This document shows, one piece after another, positions 14,775-31,873 of a DNA stretch of 59,154 nucleotides. Made by a program: the position numbers and the translations under genes. The notes under the pieces are model-generated. The model searched no databases. It had not been told where the DNA came from and was given only the letters and a program-made list of their open reading frames with translations. Source of the DNA: a virus (lineage: Duplodnaviria; Caudoviricetes); IMG/VR virus record IMGVR_UViG_3300005326_000009, positions 1 through 59,154 of that record. The stretch is one strand, 5' to 3'. How positions within the stretch are numbered: position 1 is the first letter of the stretch; every line of letters starts with the position of its first letter.

Positions 14775-14781
14775 GCTACCT

Positions 14782-14819
14782 TACCCTGGCTAGTCCCTCC
14801 TAGCCAGGGTACTTCTTTG
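14782..14819 (+). terminator. Intrinsic terminator
   Basis: TACCCTGGCTAG-loop-CTAGCCAGGGTA followed by CTTCTTT. Confidence 0.7.
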
Positions 14820-14836
14820 CACAATGCAGAGGTTTT

Positions 14837-16483: not shown

Positions 16484-17073
16484 TGGAGCGAGTACCTTTT
16501 TGTTGTCCAACCTGTAGCAAGAAACAGGGGTTTTGGTTTGGCTTTATGGGGTTGCCAGGGGAAACCTATTACTGCCATGTGTGCGGTACGAAGATGAATG
16601 AGCAACGAAAGCCTGAGATGCCTACCGAGGAACCGGTAAAGACAGTAGCTTGCTGCCCTCATTGTGACCACTTAGGCGAAGTAGGGACAGAGTGCATTTA
16701 CTGTTATGCCCTTATCAAAGGGGAGGAAGAGGAATGAAGTATTACTTTGCTTGGTGTGTGCTCATTGCCCTTGTGCTAGTTTTCGGTGGGTTCCTTGTAT
16801 TTACTGACCCTGGCAATGTAATCTTAGCTTTTCTCGTTTGTCTCGTGCTTGTGGCTATTCCTCTTATTGGACTATGTTTGCTTATCCAATGGGCAATAGA
16901 TATTATTACATGGGGGAAGGATGAATGATTAAGAACTACTTTTTGTTTGCCGTTGCTCTCCTACAGGCACTTGCCGCTGTGCAATACCTGCGGGGAAGTG
17001 ATTGGCGACTAGGGTTAGCTAACCTATTCATTAGCTTAGCATCCCTTATGTTCTCTACCATAGGAGGCAGCAG

Positions 17074-18723
17074 GTGATTCATGCTATCGCTGGCGTACCG
17101 GGCGGCGGCAAGACTACTTGGCTAAAGAACAAAGCCAAGGAGCTACTTGAGAGAGGAGTCTATAAGAAGAATGAGATAATGCTCACCTCGTTTACCAAAG
17201 CAGCAGCCGTGAAGATGGCGCAGGAAATGGGCGAGATGATAGACGAGGAAGGCATTGGTACCTTGCACAGTCTTGCCCTCAAAGCGATGAAGGAGATATA
17301 TGGGGAGAGACCGGTTATTGCCGAGGATACCAATATCAAGTCAGCCTGGAATGCCCATATCAGAGGGAGCAATTCCTGTTGGGAAATGAGCTTGGGAGAT
17401 GACGGTAATCAGTTTGGCGATGACTTGCTCAACAAGATTAACATTTACCGCGCGGAATGCGTTCCCTTCGATGACTGGGAAGACGAGGAAGCAAAAGCCT
17501 TTTACCTTGCTTGGCAGACGTTCAAGGCAGAGAACGGTGGGATGATGGACTTTACTGACATTATCCAGTTCTGCATAGAGTATAGCGTTCCTCCCCCGCG
17601 CGGGTACCGCTGCGCGTTCTTTGACGAAGCGCAAGACTTTACCAAGCTACAGTATCGGCTAGTAAGGCAATGGGGGGAGTTACTTGAGGAGTACTATGTA
17701 GCTGGTGACGATGACCAGACCTGCTACCAATTTCAGGGGTCGGACCCTCAGGACTTTGTAAGCTCTATTGAGGAAGCGACTAATCCTGTTATCCTTGACC
17801 GCAGTTACCGACTGCCGAGCGAGATTGCCACAGCAGCCGAGAGACTACTTGATACGCTAGACATTCGCCGTCCTAAAAAGATAGTCCCCGTGCGGGAGGG
17901 GGGAGGGGTTATCTCTTGCCGAGCGACAACCGAGCACTTCTTCCCCATGCGCAGGTTCCTCTTTGACGCTTTGGAGGGGGGACAGTCAGTGATGATTCTT
18001 ACTACCTGCGCCTACATGCTTACCGGTATTATCACCGAGTTACGCAACCTGGGATTACCTTACCATAACCCTTACCGCAGGCGTATGCACTCATGGAATC
18101 CCCTACATCCCGAGAAGGGAACCCCTATCGGGCAACGGTTGGCTAAGTTCCTGGCAGGACCGAACCGTTGGACAGTTCAGGATGTGAAGGATTGGGCAGC
18201 GTTCATGTTTAAGAACGGTACCAAAGCTATACAACGGAACATGGGAGCAGCAATCGAGCGTTGTGATGACGTGCGTTCCCATGCCCTGCCTTACCTGTAT
18301 AAATGGTTCACTCCCGAGGCTATGCAGTTCTTTATGGGGATGGAAAACCTGTCTATGGAGGAACGGCTCTCTTGGTTTATGGAGCAGCAAACGAAGGAAG
18401 GTAAGCGAAGCTATGCCTTTGTGGAAGCGATTGTTCAGCAGCGAGGCATGGAAACGTTAGCCGAGGAACCGCAGATTGTTGTAGGTACCATTCACTCGGT
18501 TAAGGGAGCAGAGGCAGACGTAGTGTTTATCTTCCCTGACATCTCTAAGGATGCCTGGGAGAGCCTTGCCAAGGGGGACAAGCGGAAGTACTACGCTGAT
18601 GCGCTTGACCGTGTGTTTTATGTGGGTATGACACGGGCAAAAGATACTGTCTATGTCTGTGATACCACACGAAGAGCGCACTCCTATACCAAGCTACGCC
18701 TCATGAAAGGAGCGAAATGGTAA
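17074..18723 (+). CDS. UvrD/Rep-like SF1 helicase
   Basis: GVPGGGKT, TLHSL, DEAQD, GDDDQ, SYRLP, TIHSVKGAE, YVGMTRAK. Confidence 0.9.
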   Translation: MIHAIAGVPGGGKTTWLKNKAKELLERGVYKKNEIMLTSFTKAAAVKMAQEMGEMIDEEGIGTLHSLALKAMKEIYGERPVIAEDTNIKSAWNAHIRGSNSCWEMSLGDDGNQFGDDLLNKINIYRAECVPFDDWEDEEAKAFYLAWQTFKAENGGMMDFTDIIQFCIEYSVPPPRGYRCAFFDEAQDFTKLQYRLVRQWGELLEEYYVAGDDDQTCYQFQGSDPQDFVSSIEEATNPVILDRSYRLPSEIATAAERLLDTLDIRRPKKIVPVREGGGVISCRATTEHFFPMRRFLFDALEGGQSVMILTTCAYMLTGIITELRNLGLPYHNPYRRRMHSWNPLHPEKGTPIGQRLAKFLAGPNRWTVQDVKDWAAFMFKNGTKAIQRNMGAAIERCDDVRSHALPYLYKWFTPEAMQFFMGMENLSMEERLSWFMEQQTKEGKRSYAFVEAIVQQRGMETLAEEPQIVVGTIHSVKGAEADVVFIFPDISKDAWESLAKGDKRKYYADALDRVFYVGMTRAKDTVYVCDTTRRAHSYTKLRLMKGAKW

Positions 18724-20546
18724 AGGATTACTTAAGCTTTGCTTTCGGTAAAGCAAAGAAGGAAGTCCCCACAGAAGAAGTCGTTAGCGGTCTCATGGAA
18801 GCTGGTCTACCTACCGCACGGTGGGTAGACCCTGCCCCCCTTCCTGAGCATGTGGCAATACTCCCAGTTATTAAGCAGTTCAAGTTCCGAGACCGAGCAA
18901 GGCACCGAGACCTCCTCTCCCAAGAGCTTGTAGGGAGTGTTGTCTCTTTCTCTGATAGACAGTACGGGTATCTTGACTACGCGGCGACTGTTTCCCTAGC
19001 CCATGACCCCACGATAACTAAGACGGTATGGGATGGGAAGAACCTCTATCACTTGTGCGGAGGGATAGCAGGCGTTACGTTTGACGTGCAGTTAGCGCAG
19101 TATCTCTTACAGCCTATGCATAAGGAGAAGATACGCGGGGAGAACGTCCATACGCTACAACGGGCAAGCTATGACTGGTTTAAGAACCGAAAGACTGTTC
19201 TACCTGTCTTCGATATGGTTGACCAGGAAGTTATGCTTTTGTCCTGTCACTTACTTTACCACATGGAAAAACGAATGCGGGAGAGCCTAGTAGAGCAAGG
19301 AATGGAAAGCGTGTACTTTGACATAGAGCTTCCTCTTTCCCCCGTTCTAGCGGAGATGGAGGAAAAAGGCGTTGCTTTGGACGTTCCTCTCCTTAACCGT
19401 ATGACGCAGGAGAGCGAAGCGAAAGCAGCTTTGCTCAGGCAGCGAGTCTATCAGTTAGCGGGTAGGGAGTTTAACCTTCGGTCAACACAGGAGCTTTCCC
19501 AAGTTCTCTTTGAAGAGCAGGGACTACCCAAGGGGAAGAGGACCAAGAAGGGGTACTCCACAGACGTAAAGGTGTTGGACAAGCTACGGGAGCAATTTCC
19601 TATTGTTGACGCCTTGCTCCAATTCCGAGCATCCGATAAGTTAACAGGCACGTATACGGCAAAGCTCCCTGGTCTTATCCGCAAGGACACAGGGAGACTA
19701 CACTGTCACTTTAACCAAGCAGTCTGTGTCACGGGTAGGCTATCGAGCAGTGAGCCGAACTTGCAGAATATCCCTATCCGAGGTGACGAGGGGAAGGTTA
19801 TTCGGGGAGCGTTTACCACAGACATTCCCGGTTGGGTAATCGTTAAGGCAGACTATAGCCAAATTGAGTTACGAGTGCTTGCTCACTATTCCCAAGACCC
19901 TACCATGTTAAAGGTGTATCGGGAGGGGACAGAGGACATCCACACGGGAACGGCACGAACGCTCTTTGGTTTAGCCGACAATGAGACCCCCACCAAGGAC
20001 CAACGAAGGATGGCTAAGATTGTTAACTTTGCTATCCCCTATGGTACTACCCCTCATGGGCTGTCCGAACAGGTAAAGTGCTCGGTAGAGTTTGCGGCTA
20101 CTGAGTTGTACCAACCGTATCTACGCAGGTTCAGCAGGGTAAACGACTATATGGCGAACATGCGCAAGTTTGCCCATGCAAACGGCTATGTGCAGACTCT
20201 CCTTGGCAGGCGCAGACCAATGCCTAACGTTAAGTCGTTGAACCAAGCAACGCGTGAAGCGGCAGAGCGAGAGGCGATTAACATGCCTATCCAAGGAACC
20301 GCTGCCGACATTATGAAGCTTGCTCTCTTACGTATCAAGGAAGGCATTGTACGGGAGGGGTTACGAGCGCATATGCTTATGCAGGTTCATGACGAAATTG
20401 TGTTAGAATGTCATGGGGAAGACGTGAATAAGCTAGGTACCCTGCTACGTGAGGCTATGGTACACGCTTATCATATTGACGTACCCCTAGACGTAGAGAT
20501 TAAATTCGGCCCTAACTGGGGAGAAACAGAGGTATGGAATGGCTAA
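18717..20546 (+). CDS. polA: Family A DNA polymerase (no 5'-3' exonuclease; 3'-5' exonuclease appears degenerate)
   Basis: TGRLSSSEPNLQNIP, ADYSQIELRVLAH, RRMAKIVNFAIPYG, NMPIQGTAADIMK, QVHDEI. Confidence 0.95.
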   Translation: MVKDYLSFAFGKAKKEVPTEEVVSGLMEAGLPTARWVDPAPLPEHVAILPVIKQFKFRDRARHRDLLSQELVGSVVSFSDRQYGYLDYAATVSLAHDPTITKTVWDGKNLYHLCGGIAGVTFDVQLAQYLLQPMHKEKIRGENVHTLQRASYDWFKNRKTVLPVFDMVDQEVMLLSCHLLYHMEKRMRESLVEQGMESVYFDIELPLSPVLAEMEEKGVALDVPLLNRMTQESEAKAALLRQRVYQLAGREFNLRSTQELSQVLFEEQGLPKGKRTKKGYSTDVKVLDKLREQFPIVDALLQFRASDKLTGTYTAKLPGLIRKDTGRLHCHFNQAVCVTGRLSSSEPNLQNIPIRGDEGKVIRGAFTTDIPGWVIVKADYSQIELRVLAHYSQDPTMLKVYREGTEDIHTGTARTLFGLADNETPTKDQRRMAKIVNFAIPYGTTPHGLSEQVKCSVEFAATELYQPYLRRFSRVNDYMANMRKFAHANGYVQTLLGRRRPMPNVKSLNQATREAAEREAINMPIQGTAADIMKLALLRIKEGIVREGLRAHMLMQVHDEIVLECHGEDVNKLGTLLREAMVHAYHIDVPLDVEIKFGPNWGETEVWNG

Positions 20547-21746: not shown

Positions 21747-22349
21747 ATGCGGCATGTAATGATTGACATTGAAACCCTCGGTACTAAACCAGGGACAGCC
21801 CCCGTTCTTTCTATTGGCGCAGTCTCGTTTGACCCCTACGGGGAGAGCGTAGAAGCAAGCGGTATCAGTTCCTTCTATCGAGAGTTAACTCTTACCGGTC
21901 AGTTACAACCGCAAGGGCAATGCAGTGTTGACCCTGATACGCTTGCTTGGTGGTTCAGGACGAATGCCGAAGAGTTAGGCAGGCTTGTACGGGATGGCAA
22001 GGAACCCCTCTTTTCCGCGTTGAGCGAACTCTACAGCTTTTGCAAGGGGTGGGAAACAATTAACGGTTACTGGTCAAGAGGTAAGTTTGACTTAGCTATC
22101 CTTGAAGAGCGGTACAATGACATCGGCATGGGAGTCCCTTGGAAGTATAACCAAGCAAGGGAAGTTCGTACCCTGGAAGCTACCGTTAGACTCGTCTTCA
22201 CAGACAACGCACCACAGCCCTTGCACCGGGAGCAGGGGGGAGTACACAACGCCTTAGAGGATGCTATCTATCAAGCGCAGTGTGTGCAATACTGGCTATC
22301 TCACCTCTGTATGAACAGAGATATTGTAAAGGAGTTTACCAATGAGTAG
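21747..22349 (+). CDS. DEDDh 3'-5' exonuclease (Rv2179c/RNase AS-like)
   Basis: MIDIETLG, SIGAV.FD, W..G.FDL.IL, HNALEDA. Confidence 0.85.
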   Translation: MRHVMIDIETLGTKPGTAPVLSIGAVSFDPYGESVEASGISSFYRELTLTGQLQPQGQCSVDPDTLAWWFRTNAEELGRLVRDGKEPLFSALSELYSFCKGWETINGYWSRGKFDLAILEERYNDIGMGVPWKYNQAREVRTLEATVRLVFTDNAPQPLHREQGGVHNALEDAIYQAQCVQYWLSHLCMNRDIVKEFTNE

Positions 22350-23112
22350 AGAGCATGAGACTGAAGAGCTTGTACAGGACTTAGAAGAGGGTTGTACTCG
22401 CTCCCGCATTGACGAGCGTTACGACCTCGTACCGTTCTGTGGCTTGCGCCGAACGGCAGGACGGTTTGCCCTGGGAGCAGACAAGCATGGGGAAGGTGAC
22501 TGGAAGAACGGGCAACGGCCACAGACGGCAATCAATCACATGATTAAGCACCTATACCACTATAAGGAACTCCTTGAGGAAGGATACTCCCCCAAGCAGA
22601 TAGCTGAAATGGATGATGACATAGCGGCGATTGCTTGGGGAGCGTTTGCGCTTATGTGGTATGAGGAGAACATGCCTGAACTCTTCCCCCTGGGTAAGAA
22701 GGAGCTTACCCATGCTGAGCTACAAATCATTCGTGCTAATAGCTTGCCTTATGAAGAGGGGACAAGGATACTGCGCGAAATGGAAAAGGAGATGCGAGAA
22801 CGCCACGCGAAAGAGCGAGAGGAGTTTGAGACTTCGGTTGGTCCCGCACGGTTAAAGTATGGACGGGTAACGGCAGTAGAGTTTAACGAACGGTTGCGTA
22901 GTGTGGTAGCGGGAGAAGATACGCTTCCTGAGCTTGTGGATAAGCCCATTGGTGAAGCGCAAGCTTACTTCCCCCACGAAGAAGGGAAGTCCGTAAGCAC
23001 AGCAGACACTATCCCTCCTTACCCTTGTGAGGTATGCCCTGAGCAAAAGCAAGCACCTCTTTGCATTACCTGTGAGAAGACAGACGAATGGAATGATAAG
23101 TACGATGCTTGA
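22342..23112 (+). CDS. dATP/dGTP diphosphohydrolase-like (DUF5664) domain protein
   Basis: RYDLVP...GA.KHG...WK.G...H...H...AAIAW. Confidence 0.7.
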   Translation: MSREHETEELVQDLEEGCTRSRIDERYDLVPFCGLRRTAGRFALGADKHGEGDWKNGQRPQTAINHMIKHLYHYKELLEEGYSPKQIAEMDDDIAAIAWGAFALMWYEENMPELFPLGKKELTHAELQIIRANSLPYEEGTRILREMEKEMRERHAKEREEFETSVGPARLKYGRVTAVEFNERLRSVVAGEDTLPELVDKPIGEAQAYFPHEEGKSVSTADTIPPYPCEVCPEQKQAPLCITCEKTDEWNDKYDA

Positions 23113-23395
23113 AACTAAGATTACCGAAGCAATACATAAGTACCTGGACAGCGTGGATGCTTGGTACTTTAAGGTGTGGGGGAACGCTTTTCAAATGAGT
23201 GGAGTCCCTGACACGGTTGGTTGTTATAGGGGTAGGTTCGTTGCCCTGGAAACCAAGACAGCCGAAGGACGGTTGCGAGGTAACCAGAAAAAGCGGATAC
23301 GCGACATACGCAAGGCAGGGGGAGTTGCCGAGGTAGTTAGGTCCGTAGAGGACGTACAAACTATACTTGACAAATTAGATAAGTGTATCCTATAA
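23105..23395 (+). CDS. VRR-NUC domain nuclease (Holliday junction resolvase-like)
   Basis: E..I......GVPD...C..GRFVALETK...G.L...Q......GG...VVRS. Confidence 0.9.
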   Translation: MLETKITEAIHKYLDSVDAWYFKVWGNAFQMSGVPDTVGCYRGRFVALETKTAEGRLRGNQKKRIRDIRKAGGVAEVVRSVEDVQTILDKLDKCIL

Positions 23396-23396
23396 T
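23367..23396 (+). promoter_or_regulatory. Consensus sigma70 promoter TTGACA-18-TATAAT (P1)
   Basis: Perfect -35 and -10 boxes. Confidence 0.8.
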
Positions 23397-23399
23397 GAA

Positions 23400-23470
23400 C
23401 CTGCTCGTTTGATTACCTTCCTTCTAATGACCCTGTGTAGCTAGCTACTATGCAGGGTCAATTTTTATTT
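23400..23470 (+). ncRNA. Candidate sRNA 1: pyrimidine-rich leader (ACCTTCCTT) plus terminator hairpin
   Basis: Directly after P1; stem TGACCCTGTGTAG/CTATGCAGGGTCA plus T tract; no ORF. Confidence 0.45.
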
Positions 23471-23473
23471 GAG

Positions 23474-23641
23474 GAATTATCCGCGTAGAGGGTTTTACCC
23501 GCGTCAAGTGTGGTATACTCTTACTGTAGCCAGTGAGAGGATACGGTCTTGCAAGACAGATTACAGTCCCTTGCTGGCTACAAAGATATTTTTAGAATTA
23601 TCCGCGTAAAGGGTTTTATCCGTGTCAGAGTGTGGTATAAT
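23474..23641 (+). promoter_or_regulatory. Duplicated ~45-bp promoter units P2 (23474-23519) and P3 (23595-23641) with TTATCCGCGT-type direct repeats and extended -10
   Basis: GAATTATCCGCGTAGAGGGTTTTACCCGCGTCAAGTGTGGTATACT versus GAATTATCCGCGTAAAGGGTTTTATCCGTGTCAGAGTGTGGTATAAT. Confidence 0.7.
23525..23593 (+). ncRNA. Candidate sRNA 2 (about 60 nt, long stem with internal hairpin)
   Basis: TGTAGCCAGTGAGAGGA pairs with TCCCTTGCTGGCTACA; inner GTCT-TGCA-AGAC hairpin; starts about 6 nt after the P2 -10. Confidence 0.5.
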
Positions 23642-23647
23642 ATATAT

Positions 23648-23853
23648 GTAAGAGAGAATGGAGTTTGAAGAACTTGACTTCGTTCTAGGTAGCTATCGGC
23701 AAGCGAGTAATTGCTTGAGGTGCGAAGTTTTCCGACTGGTGGAGGTGAAACCCTCCACGCTACCCAAACAAAAGCCTCTCTTACGGAAGGTAGGAAACGG
23801 AAGGTTGCTTAAACCCTGTTCACTTGTGGCGAGGTGAGCAGGGTTTTTCTTTT
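23648..23853 (+). ncRNA. Candidate multibranch structured RNA with tRNA-like acceptor/T-arm, ending in a terminator
   Basis: Nested stems GTAAGAGAG/CTCTCTTAC, GTTTG/CAAAC, AGAAC/GTTCT, GGTAGC/GCTACC, TCGG/CCGA, CAAGC/GCTTG and GTGGAGG-TGAAAC-CCTCCAC; starts 7 nt after the P3 TATAAT. Confidence 0.6.
23811..23853 (+). terminator. Intrinsic terminator
   Basis: AAACCCTGTTCACTT...AGGTGAGCAGGGTTT followed by TTCTTTT. Confidence 0.8.
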
Positions 23854-23862
23854 GCGAAAGTG

Positions 23863-23891
23863 TTGACACGTTACTATGGATAAGGTATTAT
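23863..23891 (+). promoter_or_regulatory. sigma70 promoter TTGACA-17-TATTAT (P4) driving the small-ORF region
   Basis: Near-consensus boxes; a TATCCGCGT motif overlaps the predicted start site. Confidence 0.7.
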
Positions 23892-24122
23892 ATCCGCGTT
23901 GGGGGACACAAGCACAATGGACACATTCGCGACAGTACATAAAAAGGGAGAGCACAAAGCATATTATGCAGGGCAAGTCATTGCCACAGGTACCACGAAG
24001 GAAGAGTTAGCTACTGACCTCTTCCACAAGACAGGGGTTCGTATGAGTGAGTACCGGGTAACTTGCTCGGTCAACATGGAAAGAGGGGGAATCTCTAATA
24101 GCTGGCAACGAAGGGGGAAGCA

Positions 24123-24491
24123 ATGACAAACGAACAAGTCTTTAACAAGGCACATGCGGCAGGCATGAAAGCCGCGCAGGAAGTTACCGTCAATCCGATG
24201 ATTGTACAACAGAGGGCAAACGTCCTTGACGATAACTCACCAGTTACTCAGCAATGGCTTGTTGAGGATGGCGTATGTGGCTTTGCTTGGGTAAGCATTA
24301 AAGGCAATACCAAGTTTGGCCGTTGGGCAAGCAAGACAGGACGGGCAAGCAAGGGGTACCCCACAGGGCTTAATATATGGGTACATGAGTTTGGACAGAG
24401 CTACACGCGCAAGTATGCGTATGCACAAGCCTTTGCTAATGTCTTGCAGGAGAACGGTATTATTGCTTATGCGGGAGGAAGGTTAGACTAA
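24123..24491 (+). CDS. Conserved phage early protein of unknown function
   Basis: G.CGFAWV...QS..RK.AYA.AFA.VL...GI.A...RLD pattern that I recognise from phage early regions. Confidence 0.65.
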   Translation: MTNEQVFNKAHAAGMKAAQEVTVNPMIVQQRANVLDDNSPVTQQWLVEDGVCGFAWVSIKGNTKFGRWASKTGRASKGYPTGLNIWVHEFGQSYTRKYAYAQAFANVLQENGIIAYAGGRLD

Positions 24492-24772
24492 TGCGAGTGA
24501 CACAGTTAGGACCGAACAAAACCGAGTTAGCCGTTAACGGCTCAGTGATTCTCTACTCATACGAGACACCGGTAGCCGTGACTATCCTAACGACTACCTA
24601 TATTACCGCAGAGCGGTATAGCCGAACGACAAGTAGCCATATTAAGCAATGGCTAGACGGGAAACCTTACAAGCAGGTTGACCAAACGACTATTAAGAGC
24701 CTTGTTAACGCTATCACGTCCAAGGCTATCGACTTGCGGGATATTACCCGCATAGTGGGAGAGAGCGTATGA
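24491..24772 (+). CDS. Conserved phage early protein of unknown function
   Basis: SYETPVA...YSRTTSSHI..W motif. Confidence 0.6.
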   Translation: MRVTQLGPNKTELAVNGSVILYSYETPVAVTILTTTYITAERYSRTTSSHIKQWLDGKPYKQVDQTTIKSLVNAITSKAIDLRDITRIVGESV

Positions 24773-24959
24773 GGTTCAAAGTAACCAATCTTTGTTGGAA
24801 GAAGGGGGAAGAGTTTCACGAGGAGAGCACACTCTCCCCCCACCAACTTAAGGTGTTCTATCCGGTAGTATATGAGTGCTTTACCTTTCTCTCGAAAGCT
24901 ATGCGCATAGAGATAAGGTTTAGCAACGAACGTTTGCTTGTGGTAGAGGAGGTAATCAA

Positions 24960-25304
24960 TTGACAGCATTGTTAGAGCCGAAAACCGAATACAGAGACCG
25001 CTACACCGAAGAGCAATACGACGAGATGCTTAACGAGTGCCATGAGCAAGTCAAGCTTTGTGGCATGACCTTTGACCCTGCGTATGTGCTAAAACAAATT
25101 GACCCTGTGGCGTATCGCTGTGGCTTTGCCGACTATCAGGAAGAGGAAGAGGTGTTCCTTTGCCCTGTGTGCGGAGAAGAGCATGGTATAGAGGAGGAAG
25201 CAAGGTGGTGTTGTCAAGAGGAAGATGACTTCACTTGCCAATACTGCGGAGTCTTGCATGGTTCAACCGAGTTAGCCAAAGCTTGTTGTGAGGAGGAAGA
25301 GTAG
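24960..25304 (+). CDS. Highly acidic protein with two C-terminal Cys/His Zn repeats
   Basis: YDEMLNE...DPVAYRCG..DY; CxxCG..H......CC twice. Confidence 0.65.
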   Translation: MTALLEPKTEYRDRYTEEQYDEMLNECHEQVKLCGMTFDPAYVLKQIDPVAYRCGFADYQEEEEVFLCPVCGEEHGIEEEARWCCQEEDDFTCQYCGVLHGSTELAKACCEEEE

Positions 25305-25767
25305 TGTACGAAGTACAAGGAATAGACGGACGGTATAGCGTTAACGTGGAAGCGCTTGGAGAACTGCGCTTTGTGAATAACGAGGGGGAAGAGTACGCTC
25401 TTAAGGATATTTACCCTTTGTATAAGAAGGACTTTCCAAACGATGATATTACCTATGAGGACTTTGTAGTCCAATTCATCGCTATGCAAGTAAGGCATAA
25501 GTCGGAAGGAATGTCTACCTATAACATGCTAAGGATTGCTAGTAGCATTCGTAAAATAGAAGGAGGTGAGGACAATGACAGGGATAGAGAAGGAGCTAGC
25601 CCCTCGCTTGACGGATGACTTTATCCGCGTAGAAGTGGCGAAGATGGAGGAAGGTAAGTACAAGCTTATCATTAATGACTTAGCTATTAGCTATCATTCG
25701 ACACAGGTGGAAGCGCTTACTTCTGCCGCTGTCTTGGTAGAGTGCGTAGCGGCAGGAGGTTGCCCTG

Positions 25768-26337
25768 GTGGAGTTACACGTTTCTGAAGGTAACGTAAAG
25801 ATAGGGAACGTAGTTAGCGTATCGTTACCACCGGTACTTAGCTGCGTTCCCGGTATCCCTTGCCGTAAGAAGTGCTATGCCTTGAGAGCTTGGCGACTGT
25901 ACCCGAATACGCGCAAGGCATGGAAGGAGAACTTAGAGATTGCACAGCAAGACTTGGCTTACTTTGAAAGGGAGCTTATAGCCAACTTGCAAAAACGAAG
26001 AAGTAAGCGCTATTTTCGTTGGCATGTGAGCGGGGACATCCCCTTCCCGTCTTACGTTTCCATGATGATTAGAGTAGCGCTAGCTCTCCCTGATTGGCAC
26101 TTTGTCTGTATGACCAAGCGCTATTCATGGGTAGAGAAGAGGAACTTTCCCAGTAACCTGACTATGATTTGTTCAGCTTGGGGAAGCAATTGTCCTAAGA
26201 ATGACTTGCCCGTAGCACAAGTAGAGTTTAAGACCGGACCACGAAAGGAAGGAATCTATTGTCCCGGTACTTGTACGTCTTGCAAGCTTTGTTGGGAGTT
26301 AGAAAGGGGACAGACTATCGTATTTAAGGAACATTGA
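25768..26337 (+). CDS. Gp88-like Cys-rich (radical-SAM-related) protein
   Basis: GN.KIG....SLP...SC....C...CYA...YFRWHVSGD...TK...CPG.C..C..CW. Confidence 0.7.
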   Translation: MELHVSEGNVKIGNVVSVSLPPVLSCVPGIPCRKKCYALRAWRLYPNTRKAWKENLEIAQQDLAYFERELIANLQKRRSKRYFRWHVSGDIPFPSYVSMMIRVALALPDWHFVCMTKRYSWVEKRNFPSNLTMICSAWGSNCPKNDLPVAQVEFKTGPRKEGIYCPGTCTSCKLCWELERGQTIVFKEH

Positions 26338-26352
26338 GGAGGTAGACGTACT

Positions 26353-26826
26353 ATGTATTGGTATGACTATGTAATGTTTGGGATTGATATAGTACTTATT
26401 GTCTGCTTGATTGCAGGATTTATGGCTTTCATTGCCGCGCAAGCGAACTTTAAGATTGTTCACCAACGAATAGACGCTCTTGCCGAGCGGTTAAACGCAC
26501 GGCTTGACGCGGTAGTAGAGCAATCCCAAAATAATAGAGACCGGTCTCTCGATAATAGAGACCGGTCTCTCGATAATAGAGACCGAGCGCAGGATATGAT
26601 GCGCAAGACGGAAGAGTCTGCCGAAGAGATTAAGCGCATACATGAGGCAACGGGCAAGCTCTTTGAGCATACCCAAGCCGCTGCCGCTACCATTATGTCT
26701 GTGCATAATCGGTTGGGAGATGTAGAGAACTGGCAAAACCAGTTACGGGAACTTGCCCTTGATTGCCAGCAGGCAAAACGGCGAGTCGATGACATTGCAA
26801 AGCAGGTATATGGAGGAACACAGTGA
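26353..26826 (+). CDS. Membrane-anchored coiled-coil protein with a heptad tandem repeat
   Basis: N-terminal TM helix; NRDRSLD repeated about 2.6 times. Confidence 0.7.
   Translation: MYWYDYVMFGIDIVLIVCLIAGFMAFIAAQANFKIVHQRIDALAERLNARLDAVVEQSQNNRDRSLDNRDRSLDNRDRAQDMMRKTEESAEEIKRIHEATGKLFEHTQAAAATIMSVHNRLGDVENWQNQLRELALDCQQAKRRVDDIAKQVYGGTQ
26531..26585. repeat. 21-bp tandem repeat (about 2.6 copies), each full unit containing the palindrome AGAGACCGGTCTCT
   Basis: ATAATAGAGACCGGTCTCTCG repeated exactly. Confidence 0.9.
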
Positions 26827-27110
26827 ACGCTACACAGCAAACTCTTGAGAGAGCAAGGAAAGTGGTAGCTCGGGGAGCAGGGAGGCTCCCCGTCCTATTC
26901 ACCTATGAGGAGTACGAGCTAGCGCTGTATGCGTTAGACCGATTAATCGCACAGCTAGAAAGCAAGGAAGTCTATATCTGTGCCGAGTGTGAACGCCTCT
27001 ACGAACCGCGTAGACGGGACTCCCGCTACTGTTCAGCACATTGCCGTTGGACGGCACGAAATAAACGAAGAAAACCTATTGACACGGCTGTGCTAGGTGA
27101 GCTAGAATAA
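26823..27110 (+). CDS. CGNR-like Zn-finger protein
   Basis: CAEC...Y...R....YCS..CR...R. Confidence 0.6.
   Translation: MNATQQTLERARKVVARGAGRLPVLFTYEEYELALYALDRLIAQLESKEVYICAECERLYEPRRRDSRYCSAHCRWTARNKRRKPIDTAVLGELE
27079..27108 (+). promoter_or_regulatory. sigma70 promoter TTGACA-18-TAGAAT
   Basis: Near-consensus boxes upstream of the 27149 ORF. Confidence 0.6.
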
Positions 27111-27148
27111 ACGTGTAGGCAGCAAGCCACAAACAAAGGAGTGAACGA

Positions 27149-29940
27149 ATGAGCAGTGTACGTGATAACATAGACCGCTTAAAGGGAATGACACGCGAGG
27201 AAGAAGAGGAAGCGTTACGGAACGCGTTCCCCTCTCCCGTGGAAGTCGCTCAAATGAGGGACTACTTTAAGGGAGCAGCAGAAGAGCTAAGCACCTTAGA
27301 GGATAAGGTTGTACAGTTTACCATGCCTGCCCGTGACATTATCGTGTTAGAGTTCTTCTGCACCATATTCGATGGCTACACTACAGACGGCTATCCGAGC
27401 AAGGAATTGGTTGCTCAATGTCACGAGACTTTTGACGTGACAATACAGGGGATGCTTGCCGAGGTATCCAAGCTCCTGCGCGAGGGCAATGATGTAACGA
27501 GCGTTGCCGCTGTCTTGACCTTCAATGAAGAGGCTTGCCGAGCAATGACTACTATCCTTACCTCTATCTTAGAGAAGGAGACTAACTATGAGGTTGGTGA
27601 TAGCCCTTCGGCAGAAGTCTAAGCGAGAGCTAAGAAGACTTGCAAAGCGATTGCTCCTGCAAGAAAAGTACCAGGAAGCAGAGGAAGTCTACGCCTACAT
27701 CGAAAAGGTGTATGGCGTAGACTCTACAAAGAGTGAGGTACAGTATGAATGAGAAAGACGAGAAGATACTTGCCAAACTAAAGGGCAAGCTTAGCCTAGT
27801 AAAAGCCCTACAGCAGGCAGAGCGTATCTCCCCAGGGGAACCGGTTAAGCCACAGGAGCAAGACAGTTACCGACATCGCTTTACTGTGGCAGGGAAGGAG
27901 GAAGAGGAATGACCCCTTATGCGAAGGCACGGCATTACCCACCGATGGATAACAAAGCTTACAAGCAAGCTGTCTGTGCGGAGATGCTAGCCCTTGAGTT
28001 TCACTTACAAGCCGAGGCGTTGTATGAGGCAGCAAGCGCACAAGGGCTTGACCTGTACGGTAACTACGGATACTACCACAAGCATCCCAAGGAATTAGTT
28101 ACTCTGATAAAGGAGCATACTCGTGCTAGTTCGTAACGCTTTTGGGGGGACAATGAGCAAGCCCTCTACCAATATAGTTGTCCCTGGCTATGATGATTAC
28201 CATTTTGTCGTCACACGCGGGAACTATGTAGACGTACAAGAGGATGATTTATATATCCTTACCGAGTACTCTACCGGTTTAGGCGTAGCCTTTGGACATA
28301 CCGCTAAGGAAGCAGTAGAGGACTTCCTTACCCGTAGAACACGGGAGCAATTCGAGAAGAAGTATAAGGAAGCGATAAGCCGCTATGGTATCCTTAATAA
28401 GGAGGATTAGAGCATATGAGGATGTACGTCTTTACTATCTATGACTCATATGTAACGGTTGCTACCGGTTCGTATGAGGGTTCAGCGAGGAAGAAAGCCG
28501 CTTCCGCATTCCGTAAGCACATGGCCGAACGAAAATTTCCTAAGGAAGTTATCGAACAAGGCATTACTAGTATGAAATTACAAGGGGTTTGTGAGTGGAA
28601 TGGGGGACTTGTACTTAATCAATTTCTCGGTAACTACGTAGCTATTAGCAAAGAATACAAGCCCTGTAGCTACCGAGAGAAGCTAGGAATTAAACGGGAG
28701 GAAGATTAATGTTTTATCTTATCCGGTCAAAGGATAACTACGTAACCATACTTTGCCCCCACTGTCACCAATGGCAACCGGCTACTTCGCGCAACATATA
28801 CACGGTAACCTGTACCGTGTGTAAGCAAACATACGTTCTTCGTAACCTCTTGCACTCTCTTACCCTGCAAGATGGCGCAAAGTATCAAGAGTGGTCAATG
28901 GCTATGAAAGGAGAGGTACCATGCAAACGGTTACAAGTACAGGCGTAGCCCTGGATACGGAAGACCCTGCCGCTGAACTGTGCAACCGACACCTTGCTTA
29001 TTTGAATAAGCAACGTAAGGCAGGGGTTCGTGGTATCGTTGCCAAAGCAACACACCCGAACGGCTTTACAGAGCTTGTCCTCGTACAGGATAGCAAGGTT
29101 GTCTTTTCTGCCCGAAGGTCAGAGGATATGGCCGTACACCTTGACATCCTGGCGAAAGCAGAGGAGTTTAAGCGACAATGATTACTGTCTATGATGAACA
29201 CGGCAACGCTATCCTTGAACTGACCGAGCAGCAATATTCTCGCCGCGTAGAACGCCTATTCGTCAATGTGAGGAAGAGGTTGCAACGGTTAGAGCAGCGA
29301 AGGGAAGAACTAGGAGAGTACAAAAAGAGAGCAGACAAAGCCCTCTTTAATTCCCAGGGAGCAGACAGGCGTATCTTTGTGCTCTTCCAACGCGTCAAGG
29401 AATTGGAGGAAGAGCTTGAAAGGATAAAGAATCATGAGTGACCTTGCTTCGTTTCTCATTGCTACCGTATGTGTACTTTTGGTTGGGCTATTATCTTTCA
29501 CGTATATGAGGCGCTGTTAGGAGGAACGTATGTTTGTTTCACAAAAAGGAGCTATCACGGGTAACGACTGGCAAACCCAAGACGGGCATTCTATCCGTAG
29601 CGGTACCTTGTCGTTTGAGTGTGATGTGTTTAGCTCTATGCCTATTCTTGGTGGGAGGGTTATCCTTGAGTGTGACGAGGGGGAAGTCTCCTTCTTCTTA
29701 GACAAGTGCTCTGCCACAGGAAAAGAAGCGCAGGTAATCGTTACAGGACCAGCTTGGTTTACCCTCGATAGTGGAGCAATCCCAGGGTACGTAACCTTTA
29801 CCTTTATTCCCACGCACATGAACCAACTCACTAACCAACACGGGGAAAAGGTTGGTTTCCTAGTGACCGGTCCCACGAACAAGAGAGTAGACTTTCTCTT
29901 CGACTTCTACCGCTACTTTCGGGATAAGGGGGGAAGATGA
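27149..29940 (+). CDS. Run of small hypothetical proteins (27149, 27909, 28123, 28416, 28709, 28921, 29178, 29530 and shorter ones)
   Basis: Tightly packed co-oriented ORFs with AGGAGG-type RBS; no recognisable family. Confidence 0.55.
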
Positions 29941-30431
29941 TAGATACTTGCCGTATCCTTATCACGCTTGACTGTAACTTCCGTTGCTCTTACTGTTGTA
30001 ACGAGCTACCAGAGATACAGGAGCAATTCATTAAGGTAAACTCCTTAGAAGACATCCCTTGGAATGCTTACCAAAAAGTATGTATCTCAGGTGGGGAACC
30101 CATGTTACGGGTAGACAGGTTAGACTATGTGCTTTACTACACCCGTGCGCATAGGTTACCGGTATATCTATATACCAATGGGCTATTCCTCTATGGCTTT
30201 TTAATTGACCGACTTATAGCCGAGGGAGTAACCGCTGTCAATATCGGTTGGCATGGGAGGGAAGCGGGTATTCACCGAAGCATTTTTACCCATCCCAAGG
30301 TACGAGTGACCGCTATTGAGGGGACACCTGTACCCGAATGGTTAGAACAAGCAACGACAGTTAGACGTGTTCCGTTAAACGTGTGCGAGACACCGAACGA
30401 GCACCTATATATTTGGAGGGAAGATGATTAA
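29937..30431 (+). CDS. Short radical SAM domain protein
   Basis: CNFRCSYC (CxxxCxxC), SGGEP, YTNG. Confidence 0.85.
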   Translation: MIDTCRILITLDCNFRCSYCCNELPEIQEQFIKVNSLEDIPWNAYQKVCISGGEPMLRVDRLDYVLYYTRAHRLPVYLYTNGLFLYGFLIDRLIAEGVTAVNIGWHGREAGIHRSIFTHPKVRVTAIEGTPVPEWLEQATTVRRVPLNVCETPNEHLYIWREDD

Positions 30432-30584
30432 GTTTGTACTCGCTATGTTGATAGGGACACTTGCCCTAAGTACGGCTATCGTCATGGGATTAGACAGCAA
30501 GTTCCTATACTGTGGTCTTGCCTTTATCGTTGGGATACTTAGCATATGCTATGCGATGAAGCAGGTCGAATAGGAGGTGAGTAG

Positions 30585-31873
30585 GTGACTCGGGAAGCTG
30601 AACAATTCAAGCGAGAGTGCCAAAGACAGCCCTGCGCTATGTGCGGAGACCGTCCTACGGTTGCTAGGATAACGAATCCTAACCATCCTTTGTGGGAGCA
30701 ATGGGTTTGTAATACGTGTAAGGAGGAACTATTGAGCCGACAAACCGATACTTGGGTAAAAAACGAGAACGGTAACTACGTGTACCGTACATCGGCTACT
30801 CATTGGACAGTATACCACGAAGAGAGAGGTTGGTTCTTTATCGGACGGGGAAGGGGAGCAACCGGACCATACCCCACCGCAGAAGATGCTAAGCTTTGCT
30901 GTGAGCAGCGTATGAAATTACCGAGCTACGAAGAACTTGAGAAACAGGTTGCCAAGCTACAAGGGGAGAACTGCAAGCTTCGTAGCGCTATGAGCTTAGC
31001 GGTTAATCACCTGTTAATAAAGGAGGATACTTGAATAAGGTATTATTCAACAAACTAGAGCTTGCCCTTGAAGAAGTGCAAGAACGTAAGAAGGCTATCG
31101 CTATCAAGAAAGGAGAACTTAGCCAGCTTGAGAGTGAATGCTACGCTGCCAAAGAAAGAGCAAGGGATATTGTCTTTGAGCTAGCGGAGGAAGAACTAGA
31201 TATGGACTTAAAGGAGTACTGACTTGACGCACATACATGAGGTAGAGTGTGACCGCTGTGGTAAGCGATTCCCTGCCGATACGAACAAACGAAGCAATAT
31301 CGTAGAGCGTATCTACCGAAGGTACACAGACCAAGAGGTCAATGAGTACGACTTCTGCGAGACTTGCCAAAGTAGTTTTACCGCTTGGATGATGAAGGGA
31401 AAGGATAAATGAATAACAAGTGTACGGTATGTGGAAGGGAGTTACCCTATCCCACCGAGACAACCGAAGAAGTCTGCTCCCACTGTGGGACAAGCTACTC
31501 CATACAAGACGGCTATCTCTATGTCGCCTTTATTGCCTATGGCGTTGCTACCGAGAAGGGTTTGGTAAGAGTCTACTTACGAGAAAGCACCGCACGAGGG
31601 CAAGCTACCCGTATTAACAACGGGCATGGGTATATCAGAGGTACCGCACGTGTGGTAACCTTGAGGAGTTAAATGAGCTATACTTCAACTATCGTACATA
31701 CCTTCGTGTGTGACCGCTGTAAGAAGGTACAAGACGGGGATAACTTGAATTGGTGGTTTATTGACGTAGGAGTACGGAACAGAGAGGAAACGCTCAGTCA
31801 CTCTTCAACCTATGATTTGTGCGATGAATGCTTTGAATTGTTCCGTACACGGTTTATTAAGAAGGAGGAGTAG
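30585..31873 (+). CDS. Small hypothetical and Zn-ribbon proteins (30585, 31031, 31224, 31409, 31673)
   Basis: CxxC pairs; 31224 and 31673 are paralogous (CDRC...YD.C..C). Confidence 0.6.

What the first reader, a model, noticed from the sequence alone, without database searches (positions are those of the whole stretch)
23367..23900. Four-promoter cassette of three structured small RNAs at the head of the early region
Seen: 530 bp with no convincing gene contain P1 (perfect TTGACA/TATAAT), two duplicated extended -10 promoters (P2, P3) and P4. P1-P3 are each followed 4-7 nt later by a self-contained stem-loop unit, and units 1 and 3 end in terminators. Inference: the phage expresses an array of short non-coding RNAs from host RNA polymerase immediately on infection. 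These could be an RNA-based host-takeover or anti-defence module (decoys, antitoxin mimics, sponges) placed just ahead of the small early proteins.
Basis: partly seen in the sequence, partly recalled or inferred. Interest (0 to 1): 0.8.

Follow-up and report, generated by a model that had tools for sequence, protein, structure and literature searches.

The report
Gene-free promoter and terminator cluster in phage
A 521-base gene-free spacer in an uncultivated tailed phage holds four bacterial-type promoters and two strong terminators, so it probably makes a few short non-coding RNAs, but no relatives or expression data exist to show what they do.

Summary
Window 23396-23916 is one of only two gene-free gaps over 500 nt in a complete 59-kb siphovirus genome. 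It contains P1 (12 of 12 consensus), a duplicated 63-bp cassette carrying two extended -10 promoters (P2, P3), P4 (11 of 12) and two canonical intrinsic terminators (T1, T3). Promoters, terminators and RNA structure are all enriched here against shuffles and against the rest of the genome. The only sizeable ORF (59 aa) has no ribosome-binding site, decoy-like codon usage and no homologue.

P1-T1 (about 60 nt) and P3-T3 (about 200 nt) look like gene-less transcription units. P2 has no terminator of its own. P4 is an ordinary mRNA promoter.

The region lies in the middle of the + strand arm, after the replication genes, not at the main divergent control region (3734-4316). A DNA motif shared by P2, P3 and P4 suggests regulated rather than immediate-early firing.

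Nothing supports an anti-defence role. There is no Rfam match, no DNA homologue in any collection searched and no RNA run listed, so covariation and expression remain untested. Verdict: plausible phage small-RNA candidates of a known kind, of moderate interest.

The parts
23105..23395 (+). Last gene of the replication/nucleotide-metabolism module (VRR-NUC-like nuclease, 96 aa). P1 lies inside its 3' end.
   Evidence: PHROG 93 endonuclease, E 1.8e-20; Pfam VRR_NUC, E 1.9e-4, below the curated cut-off.
23367..23396 (+). P1: TTGACA-18 nt-TATAAT. The -10 element overlaps the stop codon. Predicted start of transcription is about 23403.
   Evidence: 12 of 12 consensus. One of 7 matches of 11 or more of 12 in the genome, against 0.5 expected. 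The 9 nt after the -10 (GAACCTGCT) are identical to those after the promoter at 13971.
23403..23468 (+). Unit 1: predicted RNA of about 60-66 nt. It has a 25-nt unpaired C/U-rich 5' arm (ACCUUCCUUCU, anti-Shine-Dalgarno-like) followed by the T1 hairpin and a U tail.
   Evidence: MFE -19.9 kcal/mol, z -4.46, 0 of 200 shuffles as stable. The 5' arm pairs with the phage's own translation-start regions better than composition-matched shuffles: mean -14.9 versus -12.4 +/- 0.8, 0 of 150 shuffles as low.
23428..23470 (+). T1: intrinsic terminator. It also sits 33 nt after the stop of the upstream operon's last gene, so it is that operon's terminator too.
   Evidence: 13-pair stem, loop 7, tail AUUUUUAUUU. 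It shares the stem base ACCCTG...CAGGGT with T3 and with the terminator at 14783: 4 matches in the genome against 0.13 expected.
23466..23528 (+). Promoter cassette copy A: T-rich stretch, two direct TAYCCGYGT sites (23478 and 23496, 18 nt apart) and the extended -10 promoter P2 (TGTGGTATACT, 23509-23519). No usable -35 element.
23525..23582 (+). Unit 2: 58-nt irregular hairpin starting at the predicted P2 transcription start. It is followed by AAAGAUAUUUUUAG, so it is not a canonical terminator.
   Evidence: MFE -28.1 kcal/mol, z -5.45, 0 of 200 shuffles as stable.
23587..23650 (+). Promoter cassette copy B: the same layout, with sites at 23599 and 23617 and the perfect extended -10 promoter P3 (TGTGGTATAAT, 23631-23641).
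   Evidence: 85% and 77% identity to copy A. Similarity fades after the transcription start.
23648..23784 (+). Unit 3 body: compact multi-helix domain closed by a 9-bp stem (GUAAGAGAG / CUCUCUUAC) that begins at the predicted P3 transcription start.
   Evidence: The 143-nt fold gives -52 kcal/mol, z -4.15, 0 of 200 shuffles as stable. The whole 210-nt unit gives z -5.25.
23744..23760 (-). Inverted third copy of the 17-nt core GCGTNNRGGGTTTYAYC. Its two direct copies lie in the -35 zones of P2 and P3. In RNA it forms the hairpin GUGGAGG...CCUCCAC of unit 3.
   Evidence: All 3 exact matches in the genome lie in this region (the pattern was derived from them). With up to 2 mismatches only the two copies of the terminal overlap are added.
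23785..23810 (+). Purine-rich linker with two ACGGAAGGU repeats, between the unit 3 body and T3.
   Evidence: Read from the sequence; mostly unpaired in the centroid fold. GGA is not enriched by my hand count.
23811..23856 (+). T3: intrinsic terminator ending the P3 transcript (and probably the P2 transcript).
   Evidence: 15-pair stem, loop 6, U-rich tail; same stem-base family as T1.
23658..23837 (+). ORF59: the only ORF of 50 aa or more on the + strand in the gap. Judged non-coding.
   Evidence: None of its 4 candidate starts has a Shine-Dalgarno motif. Its codon score is -0.046, and 31% of 340 decoy ORFs score as high or higher. It has 0 Pfam and 0 PHROG families and 0 hits among 1.84 billion representatives, not even itself. 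Its AUG lies inside a predicted stem.
23863..23903 (+). P4: TTGACA-17-TATTAT, with a TATCCGCGTTGGG motif copy over the predicted transcription start. It is the ordinary mRNA promoter of the downstream operon.
   Evidence: 11 of 12 consensus; motif. The other five consensus promoters of the genome likewise sit 10-45 nt before a gene.
23917..24126 (+). First gene after the cassette (69 aa, orphan). It marks the end of the gene-free gap.
   Evidence: Codon score 0.241. The only database hit is itself, seen on 3 contigs. The single-sequence model has mean pLDDT 73.6 and a beta3-alpha-beta2 order of elements.

Best explanation
The spacer is a transcription hub at an operon boundary in a phage that appears to rely on the host's primary-sigma RNA polymerase.

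Shown by sequence statistics:
- four promoters and two canonical intrinsic terminators;
- no credible gene;
- unusually strong predicted RNA structure.

Inferred:
- RNA polymerase starting at P1 (about 23403) stops at T1 and releases an RNA of about 60 nt. This RNA has an unpaired C/U-rich, anti-Shine-Dalgarno-like 5' arm and a terminator hairpin with a U tail. That is the shape of a base-pairing small RNA that shares the terminator of the upstream operon.
- Polymerase starting at P3 (about 23648) makes an RNA of about 200 nt: a closed multi-helix domain, a purine-rich linker, then T3.
- P2 transcripts begin with a 58-nt hairpin that may protect the 5' end or serve as a processing site. Lacking their own terminator, they most likely run to T3 (about 330 nt).
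- P4 is the normal promoter of the downstream small-gene operon.
- P2, P3 and P4 share a DNA motif, in paired copies over the missing -35 of P2 and P3 and in one copy over +1 of P4. The same unknown DNA-binding factor probably switches output between the P4 mRNA and the P2/P3 RNAs during infection.

The most likely activity of the 60-nt RNA is masking ribosome-binding sites. The activity of the 200-nt RNA is unknown; protein binding is my guess.
For: - Promoters: 7 matches of 11 or more of 12 in the genome against 0.5 expected. All are co-oriented with the genes and 2 lie here. The extended -10 word occurs 7 times against 1.79 expected. Five of those 7 lie in non-coding DNA and point with the local genes, including 2 here.
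- Terminators T1 and T3 are canonical and belong to a 3-member family on the + arm.
- This is one of only two gaps over 500 nt (corrected).
- The other five consensus promoters are each followed by a gene within 10-45 nt. P1, P2 and P3 are not.
- ORF59 is rejected.
- Structure: z from -4.2 to -6.6. Four of the 17 most structured of 1181 genome windows lie here.
- The closing stems of units 2 and 3 begin at the predicted transcription starts.
- The 5' arm of unit 1 pairs with the phage's translation-start regions better than 150 of 150 shuffles by mean energy.
- The motif TAYCCGYGTNRAG occurs 8 times against 1.63 expected, and 4 of the 8 lie here.
- No Q-type antiterminator was found with the two families whose controls worked.
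Against: - There is no expression evidence of any kind. The transcription starts are predicted, not mapped.
- There is no homologous region anywhere, so not one base pair is supported by covariation.
- The host is unknown, so promoter and terminator rules are borrowed from model bacteria.
- T1 is needed anyway as the terminator of the upstream operon, and T3 plus P4 could be a plain insulator.
- P2 and P3 are a recent-looking duplication and could be redundant.
- The pairing of unit 1 with unit 3 is no better than chance: 11% of shuffled arms do as well.
- The apparent clustering of predicted targets in the P4 operon disappears once general Shine-Dalgarno strength is regressed out (p = 0.12-0.18).
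- The structure ranks are high but not unique (z about -2.5 to -3.0 after GC adjustment).
- Among 25 loci of other phages carrying the neighbouring 122-aa gene, only 4 have any ORF-free gap of 200 nt or more upstream. The cassette therefore does not travel with that gene.
Confidence: 0.5

Rival explanations
1. Plain operon boundary built from shuffled terminator-plus-promoter cassettes, in the manner of the PeSL cassettes of T4-type phages or of emptied 'moron' slots. T1 ends the replication operon. The pairs T1+P2, hairpin 2+P3 and T3+P4 are three stem-loop / AT-rich / promoter cassettes. The short RNAs are by-products with no function of their own.
For: - The region parses exactly as three stem-loop, T-rich tract, promoter cassettes.
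- The P2 and P3 cassettes are 77-85% identical, while the transcribed parts are unrelated.
- T1, T3 and the terminator at 14783 share the same stem base, and P1 and the promoter at 13971 share 9 nt after the -10. Regulatory modules have therefore been copied around this genome.
- PeSLs are described as strong sigma-70-like promoters joined to stem-loop terminators that mediate shuffling (PMC2839356, passages read).
Against: - By-products would not need a 58-nt near-perfect hairpin (z -5.45), nor a 137-nt domain closed from the first transcribed base (z -4.15).
- In a genome this tightly packed, 521 nt of junk is unexpected.
- Only two near-identical cassette copies exist, not a genome-wide family.
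Confidence: 0.24
2. Regulated leader. P1-P3 are additional promoters of the downstream operon, and T1 and T3 are conditional terminators. These would be opened by a phage antiterminator, a cis-acting RNA or a ligand. The short RNAs would then be the 'off' products, like the lambda PR'-tR' transcript or StxS.
For: - The layout promoter, structured leader, strong terminator, operon is the classical arrangement. In Stx phages early termination at PR' yields the small RNA StxS (PMC7547250, abstract in a search listing only).
- Pseudomonas phages show 29 ncRNA candidates derived from 5' UTRs by premature termination (PMC10914365, passages read).
- Elsewhere on the + arm, genes 14840-20546 have no recognisable promoter behind the terminator at 14783. 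Read-through of this terminator family therefore seems to be needed.
Against: - P4 (11 of 12) stands between T3 and the operon, so the operon does not need read-through.
- No Q-type antiterminator was found with the two Pfam families whose controls worked. The third family's control was silent, so it says nothing.
- There is no Rfam riboswitch or leader match.
- I saw no convincing antiterminator alternative to T1 or T3. The only candidate is an 8-nt similarity that is expected by chance.
Confidence: 0.13
3. P3-ORF59-T3 is a small protein-coding 'moron' (promoter, 59-aa gene, terminator) translated from a very short leader.
For: The ORF fills the unit from 10 nt after the predicted start into T3. 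Orphan small genes are common here: the neighbouring 69-aa gene also has no homologue.
Against: - None of its 4 candidate starts has a Shine-Dalgarno motif, whereas 42 of 43 ORFs of 120 aa or more have one at the chosen start. That start was chosen for the best motif, so the comparison is generous.
- The codon score is -0.046, inside the decoy range.
- It was not found as a predicted protein in a library that does hold its neighbours.
- The AUG is buried in a stem.
Confidence: 0.07
4. The element acts on DNA: a replication origin or another protein-binding locus. The TAYCCGYGT copies would be iterons and promoter-driven transcription would open the DNA.
For: - Five motif copies lie within 425 bp, with satellites at 12025 (-) and 25622 (+), on either side of the replication module.
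- The region lies right after the replication genes and is AT-richer than the genome: 39-45% against about 50% GC.
Against: - Cumulative GC skew has no inflection here. Its extremes are at about 3-4 kb and 32 kb.
- The other large gap (3734-4316), with 10 AACTACA repeats and 37-40% GC, is the better origin candidate.
- An origin does not explain two strong terminators.
Confidence: 0.06

Closest known systems
Phage ncRNA candidates made by promoter-proximal (5' UTR) termination in virulent Pseudomonas phages (ONT-cappable-seq; PMC10914365, passages read)
   Same: Short RNAs with a defined start that end at a terminator ahead of a gene in lytic phages. They have no ORF with a ribosome-binding site and their function is unknown.
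   Different: Those RNAs were seen experimentally and are conserved within genera. Here nothing is measured and no relative exists. Here a further promoter (P4) follows the terminator, and several units are stacked.
Lambda-type PR'-tR' short transcript / StxS (PMC7547250, abstract in a search listing only; the lambda 6S RNA is recalled)
   Same: A strong promoter, an RNA of about 70-200 nt and a strong terminator directly upstream of an operon. The terminated RNA can itself be a regulator.
   Different: No Q-family gene was found. A consensus promoter sits after the terminator. The phage appears virulent: no integrase or resolvase family was found.
PeSL (promoter-early stem-loop) cassettes of T4-type phages (PMC2839356, passages read)
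   Same: A sigma-70-like promoter, an AT-rich tract and a stem-loop terminator repeated in intergenic DNA next to small orphan genes. The cassettes appear to have been copied.
   Different: PeSLs number dozens per genome and flank ORFs. Here only two cassette copies exist and nothing coding lies between them. This is a siphovirus, not a T4-type phage.
Bacterial small RNAs with their own promoter inside the upstream gene that share its terminator (DapZ and MicL type; recalled, no call)
   Same: P1 lies within the last codons of the upstream gene, and its RNA would end at that operon's terminator with an unpaired 5' arm.
   Different: No target, chaperone dependence or conservation can be shown here.
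Tandem early promoters A1, A2 and A3 of phage T7 (spacing of about 125 bp; recalled, no call)
   Same: Three host-polymerase promoters in the same direction at about 122-123 bp spacing, ahead of small genes. A long irregular hairpin could be an RNase III site.
   Different: As I recall, T7 has no terminators between these promoters and all three feed the early mRNA. Here T1 and T3 intervene.
RNA anti-CRISPRs (Racrs; PMC10651486, abstract in a search listing only) and the lambda small RNA PreS/LPR1 (bioRxiv 10.1101/2024.10.31.621285, abstract)
   Same: Phage-encoded small non-coding RNAs that act on host systems.
   Different: No CRISPR-repeat family and no other family matched in Rfam. The host is unknown, so mimicry cannot be tested.

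Membership tests
Terminator-ended, base-pairing small RNA gene (generic class) | Own promoter | tested here: met
   P1 matches 12 of 12 of the consensus; such matches are 14-fold enriched in this genome and co-oriented with the genes. This is a prediction only.
Terminator-ended, base-pairing small RNA gene (generic class) | Intrinsic terminator with a U tail, and no translated ORF | tested here: met
   T1 and T3 are canonical. ORF59 is rejected. Unit 1 has no ORF of 25 aa or more.
Terminator-ended, base-pairing small RNA gene (generic class) | Discrete transcript observed | not testable with these tools
   The only run listed is DNA and may be the source sample.
Terminator-ended, base-pairing small RNA gene (generic class) | Conserved seed and a specific target | tested here: inconclusive
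   The 5' arm is anti-Shine-Dalgarno-like, beating 150 of 150 shuffles by mean energy. No specific target stands out once Shine-Dalgarno strength is controlled. No homologues exist to test conservation.
Lambda-type Q antitermination leader (PR'-tR') | Q-family antiterminator gene in the genome | tested here: not met
   PF06530 and PF03589 gave 0 matches with working controls. The control for PF06323 was silent, so that search says nothing.
Lambda-type Q antitermination leader (PR'-tR') | The operon depends on read-through, with no promoter after the terminator | tested here: not met
   P4 (11 of 12) lies between T3 and the first gene.
PeSL cassettes | Sigma-70-like promoter, upstream AT-rich tract and stem-loop terminator in one cassette | tested here: met
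   T1+P2, hairpin 2+P3 and T3+P4 all fit this layout.
PeSL cassettes | Many copies flanking orphan ORFs in hyperplastic regions of T4-type genomes | tested here: not met
   There are only 2 near-identical cassette copies, with no ORF between them. The genome is a 59-kb siphovirus.
Known Rfam RNA families (riboswitches, 6S and any other curated family; CRISPR direct repeats and ToxI by my recollection) | Covariance-model score at or near the gathering threshold | tested here: not met
   The best 4 matches score 14.6-18.5 bits against thresholds of 44-90, with E values of 4.4-9.3.
Structured RNA supported by covariation | Compensatory base changes in homologues | not testable with these tools
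   No homologous DNA was found in the phage, plasmid or E. coli collections, nor in 161 fetched loci from IMG/VR and JGI metagenomes. The 8 GTDB loci and the one locus were not scanned for this DNA.

The most novel reading that the evidence does not exclude
A virulent siphovirus devotes a dedicated 0.5-kb locus to non-coding RNAs. One is a 60-nt RNA whose free arm imitates the anti-Shine-Dalgarno end of 16S rRNA and masks ribosome-binding sites. Another is a separate 200-nt folded RNA. A phage DNA-binding factor toggles the locus against the neighbouring early-gene promoter. Together they would form an RNA-based layer of host takeover or counter-defence not yet described for this kind of phage.
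Probability: 0.12. Interest if true: 0.7.

Novelty: new member of a known kind. Interest (0 to 1): 0.35.

Why it matters
Small RNAs of lytic phages are only now being catalogued, and few have a known function. If this locus really makes them, it would be a compact, well-delimited example. It would offer several RNAs with their own promoters and terminators, apparently under a shared switch. Because the promoters and terminators match the standard bacterial consensus, it could be studied on a synthetic 600-bp fragment in a standard laboratory bacterium, even though the phage and its host are uncultivated. If it is only a boundary made of copied regulatory cassettes, it still shows how such cassettes spread within a phage genome outside the T4 group.

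Tried and rejected
**Homologue hunt (all negative)**
- blastn of the region against the phage collection, plasmids and E. coli genomes gave no match.
- Single-protein scans of IMG/VR with the two neighbouring genes and with the DNA polymerase gave no close relative. The polymerase found one locus at 28% identity.
- The 122-aa neighbour has 85 relatives among 86 candidates.
- Alignment-based scans returned 80 IMG/VR loci (at most 57% identity), 80 metagenome loci (at most 60%) and 8 GTDB loci (at most 50%).
- blastn and nhmmer of the region against 81 and then 161 of these loci gave only chance matches of 14-25 nt and no nhmmer hit. Only 1 of the 161 loci shares a second neighbouring gene.
- Two DNA patterns scanned over IMG/VR gave one chance hit inside a gene of an unrelated phage and nothing.
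- tblastn of the 122-aa protein against cultured phages gave no match.

**Expression**
- No RNA holder is listed; one DNA run was found, which may be the source sample.
- Laying that run only confirmed the sequence.

**Ideas tested and dropped**
- Pairing of unit 1 with the GGAAGGU repeats of unit 3: 11% of shuffled arms do as well.
- Preferential targeting of the P4 operon by unit 1: explained by that operon's stronger Shine-Dalgarno sites.
- A CsrA-type sponge: 5 GGA triplets in 210 nt, close to the number expected by my hand count.
- A riboswitch-type antiterminator: only an 8-nt similarity, which is expected by chance.
- CRISPR-repeat mimicry: no Rfam hit.
- The first gene after P4 as a helix-turn-helix autoregulator: the model is beta3-alpha-beta2 with no recognisable DNA-binding fold, and the Atlas gave nothing.
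- ORF39 (23549-23668) and ORF33 (23711-23812) have gene-like codon scores of 0.18, but they are very short. ORF39 starts inside hairpin 2 and runs across promoter P3. The two cassette copies do not keep one reading frame.

**Technical**
- A shuffle-based genome-wide z-score scan timed out and was replaced by a GC-adjusted MFE scan.
Full report
**Setting**

The window is a complete 59,154-bp virus record with a terminal overlap. A public run that holds it is labelled a groundwater metagenome.

It is a siphovirus. The - strand arm carries small and large terminase subunits, a major head protein and a 1692-aa tape measure protein.

The + strand arm (4317-31873) carries an HTH_17 protein, a dUTPase, a PD-(D/E)XK nuclease, SNF2 and UvrD helicases, a family A DNA polymerase, a 3'-5' exonuclease, a protein with a dATP/dGTP diphosphohydrolase N-terminal domain and a VRR-NUC-like nuclease.

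No integrase or resolvase family was found. A search for a T7-type RNA polymerase found nothing, but its control was silent.

The two arms diverge at 3734-4316, a 583-nt gap full of AACTACA repeats.

**The observation**

The finding lies between the stop of the VRR-NUC-like gene (23395) and the first credible start downstream (ATG 23917). This 521-nt gap is one of only two over 500 nt in the genome. Several other gaps in that crude gene list are artefacts of start-codon choice, as the longer ORFs show.

- P1: TTGACA-18-TATAAT, 23367-23396, 12 of 12.
- T1: 23428-23460, followed by a U-run.
- P2: TGTGGTATACT, 23509-23519.
- P3: TGTGGTATAAT, 23631-23641.
- T3: 23811-23846, followed by a U-run.
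- P4: TTGACA-17-TATTAT, 23863-23891, 11 of 12.

P2 and P3 sit in a duplicated 63-bp cassette. The copies are 85% identical over 41 nt and 77% over 22 nt, at a spacing of 121-122 nt. The similarity fades right after the predicted transcription starts.

The one loose detail concerns P1. Its only hairpin is T1, which begins 31 nt after the -10 element, and the first 25 nt or so are predicted unpaired.

A separately assembled 17,797-nt contig from the same, possibly source, run is identical over 22900-24400.

**Is it more than chance?**

- Matches of 11 or more of 12 to the two-hexamer consensus number 7 in the genome. In 200 simulated genomes the mean was 0.50 and the maximum 3. All 7 point with the local genes and 2 are P1 and P4.
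- The loose threshold of the scanning tool shows no excess: 4 found against 2.7 expected in 22500-25000. The signal is confined to near-perfect sites.
- The extended -10 word TGTGGTATAMT occurs 7 times with up to 1 mismatch, against 1.79 expected; 0 of 100 shuffles reach 7. Five of the 7 are non-coding and correctly oriented: P2, P3, 3780 (-), 4283 (+) and 42465 (-). The other two lie antisense inside genes.
- T1 and T3 share the stem base ACCCTG...CAGGGT with the + strand terminator at 14783. That pattern has 4 matches in the genome against 0.13 expected.
- Predicted structure is strong: z -4.46 (unit 1, 66 nt), -5.45 (unit 2 hairpin, 71 nt), -4.15 (unit 3 body, 143 nt), -5.25 (unit 3, 210 nt), -4.95 (P2 to T3, 331 nt) and -6.63 (whole 454 nt).
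- In a GC-adjusted scan of 1181 windows of 150 nt on the transcribed strand, windows from this region rank 9, 10, 14 and 17. The top two windows come from the other large gap. The excess is real but not unique.

**No gene**

ORF59 (23658-23837) fills the P3-T3 unit, but the evidence is against it:
- None of its 4 candidate starts has a Shine-Dalgarno motif.
- Its codon score is -0.046, and 31% of 340 decoy ORFs score as high or higher. Its neighbours score 0.24-0.31.
- It has no Pfam or PHROG family.
- It has no hit, not even itself, among 1.84 billion representative proteins. The neighbouring 69-aa and 122-aa proteins, by contrast, are on record.
- Its AUG lies in a predicted stem.

Two shorter ORFs (39 and 33 codons) have gene-like codon scores. 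However, one begins inside hairpin 2 and runs across P3, and the duplicated cassette keeps no common reading frame.

**What the units look like**

The other five consensus promoters of the genome each stand 10-45 nt before a gene with a ribosome-binding site. P4 is like them; P1, P2 and P3 are not.

- *Unit 1.* P1 lies inside the last codons of the upstream gene and would fire into that operon's terminator. The product would be about 60 nt long, with a free C/U-rich arm (ACCUUCCUUCU) and a terminator hairpin with a U tail.
  - The arm pairs with the phage's own translation-start regions better than composition-matched shuffles. The mean is -14.9 against -12.4 +/- 0.8 kcal/mol (0 of 150 shuffles as low). 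The top-five mean is matched by 0.7% of shuffles and the single best site by 4%.
  - No specific target survives controls. The apparent preference for the P4 operon (p = 0.045-0.09) vanishes after regression on pairing with a standard anti-Shine-Dalgarno motif (p = 0.12-0.18).
  - Pairing with unit 3 is at chance level: 11% of shuffled arms do as well.
- *Unit 2.* A 58-nt irregular hairpin starts at the predicted P2 transcription start. Its U-run begins 6 nt after the stem, so I do not count it as a terminator.
- *Unit 3.* This begins at the predicted P3 transcription start with a 9-bp closing stem around a multi-helix domain. A purine-rich linker and T3 follow.

A DNA motif, TAYCCGYGT with a conserved extension, occurs in direct pairs 18 nt apart over the missing -35 of P2 and of P3. 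It occurs once more over +1 of P4.
- With up to 1 mismatch the 13-nt form TAYCCGYGTNRAG has 8 genome matches against 1.63 expected (0 of 100 shuffles reach 8). Four of the 8 lie here, with satellites at 12025 (-) and 25622 (+).
- A 17-nt core has a third, inverted copy inside unit 3 at 23744-23760.
- The two - arm promoters that use the same extended -10 word carry a different upstream repeat, AACTACA.

I read this as promoter classes served by different phage DNA-binding factors. P2 and P3 would then be regulated rather than immediate-early, and P4 would be shut off by the same factor. This is inference from motif positions only.

**What could not be tested**

- Rfam gave nothing: the best E value is 4.4 and scores are 14.6-18.5 bits against thresholds of 44-90.
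- No homologous DNA exists in any collection I could search.
- The phage has no close relative. The best polymerase identity in the phage collection is below 60% for all 5000 records kept. The best relative of the 122-aa neighbour with fetchable DNA is 60% identical.
- Among 25 of those loci examined, 4 have any ORF-free gap of 200 nt or more in the 2.5 kb upstream.
- No base pair is therefore supported by covariation.
- No RNA run is listed.

**Explanation and rivals**

I put 0.5 on the reading that at least P1-T1 and P3-T3 are genuine gene-less transcription units whose RNAs are the product. The rivals are:
- copied terminator-promoter cassettes at a plain operon boundary, with by-product RNAs (0.24; compare PeSLs, PMC2839356);
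- a conditional leader or attenuator feeding the downstream operon (0.13; compare StxS, PMC7547250, and the 5' UTR termination products of PMC10914365). P4 stands behind T3, and no Q-type gene was found in the two families with working controls;
- a small protein gene (0.07);
- a DNA-level element such as an origin (0.06). GC skew shows no inflection here.

**Comparison and novelty**

The nearest known things are phage small RNAs made by promoter-proximal termination, small RNAs that share an upstream operon's terminator, and PeSL-type regulatory cassettes. The locus fits the general kind but cannot be filed in any named family.

The anti-defence idea remains open but has no support. Supplementary tables of the cited papers were not available and might list comparable stacked units.

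I score it as a new member of a known kind, with interest 0.35.

Noticed in passing
window 3734-4316 and 42446-42760: Two non-coding regions carry clusters of the 7-mer AACTACA in both orientations: 10 copies at 3935-4177 and 7 at 42488-42764. The genome total is 22 against 8.45 expected. Each cluster lies next to a - strand extended -10 promoter (3780, 42465). They are probably activator or repressor sites for the structural-gene arm. The first region is also the best origin candidate (37-40% GC, at the GC-skew minimum).
   Followed up: partly
window 14783-14810, 23430-23458, 23813-23844: Three + strand intrinsic terminators share the same stem base, ACCCTG...CAGGGT (4 matches in the genome against 0.13 expected). 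Terminator modules seem to have been copied within the genome.
   Followed up: partly
window 13971-14009 and 23367-23405: Two consensus promoters with 18-nt spacers share an identical 9 nt right after the -10 element (GAACCTGCT). Only 4 exact copies of this 9-mer exist in the genome.
   Followed up: partly
window 14686-14840: A 10-of-12 promoter lies inside the 3' end of gene 14046-14774, followed by the terminator at 14783. No recognisable promoter was found on the + strand between there and about 20400. Genes from 14840 to 20546, including a 547-aa protein of unknown family, the UvrD-type helicase and the DNA polymerase, therefore seem to need read-through of that terminator.
   Followed up: partly
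window 22342-23112: A 256-aa protein has a dATP/dGTP diphosphohydrolase N-terminal domain (Pfam PF18909, E 3e-9). By my recollection this is a kind of enzyme used by phages that replace a DNA base. No adenylosuccinate-synthetase (PurZ-like) gene was found in the genome.
   Followed up: partly
window 12025-12037 (-), 12115-12123 (+), 25622-25634 (+): Extra copies of the TAYCCGYGT motif lie inside coding regions at the start of the replication module and 1.7 kb downstream of the cassette. Each shares about 10-13 identical bases with the copies at P2 or P3.
   Followed up: no
window 23917-31873: Genes of the operon behind P4 pair more strongly with a standard anti-Shine-Dalgarno motif than the rest of the genome (mean -10.0 against -8.7 kcal/mol, p = 0.003). 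This would fit highly translated genes.
   Followed up: no
window 23917-24126: The first gene after the cassette is an orphan. Its only database hit is itself, seen on 3 contigs. The single-sequence model is beta3-alpha-beta2 with mean pLDDT 73.6, and the Atlas's own model has pLDDT 0.87. No family or function was found.
   Followed up: partly
window 2290-2365 (-): A tRNA-Gln (anticodon TTG) is embedded among the first genes of the structural arm.
   Followed up: no
window 26536-26586 (within gene 26353-26826): Tandem, partly palindromic repeats (AGAGACCGGTCTCT) encode a repeated DNRDRSL peptide in a 157-aa protein. They were flagged as terminator-like on the - strand, probably by accident.
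   Followed up: no
window 7-23 and 59038-59054: Motif hits at these two places are identical, which is consistent with the overlap of the record's two ends reported for this record (direct terminal repeats).
   Followed up: no
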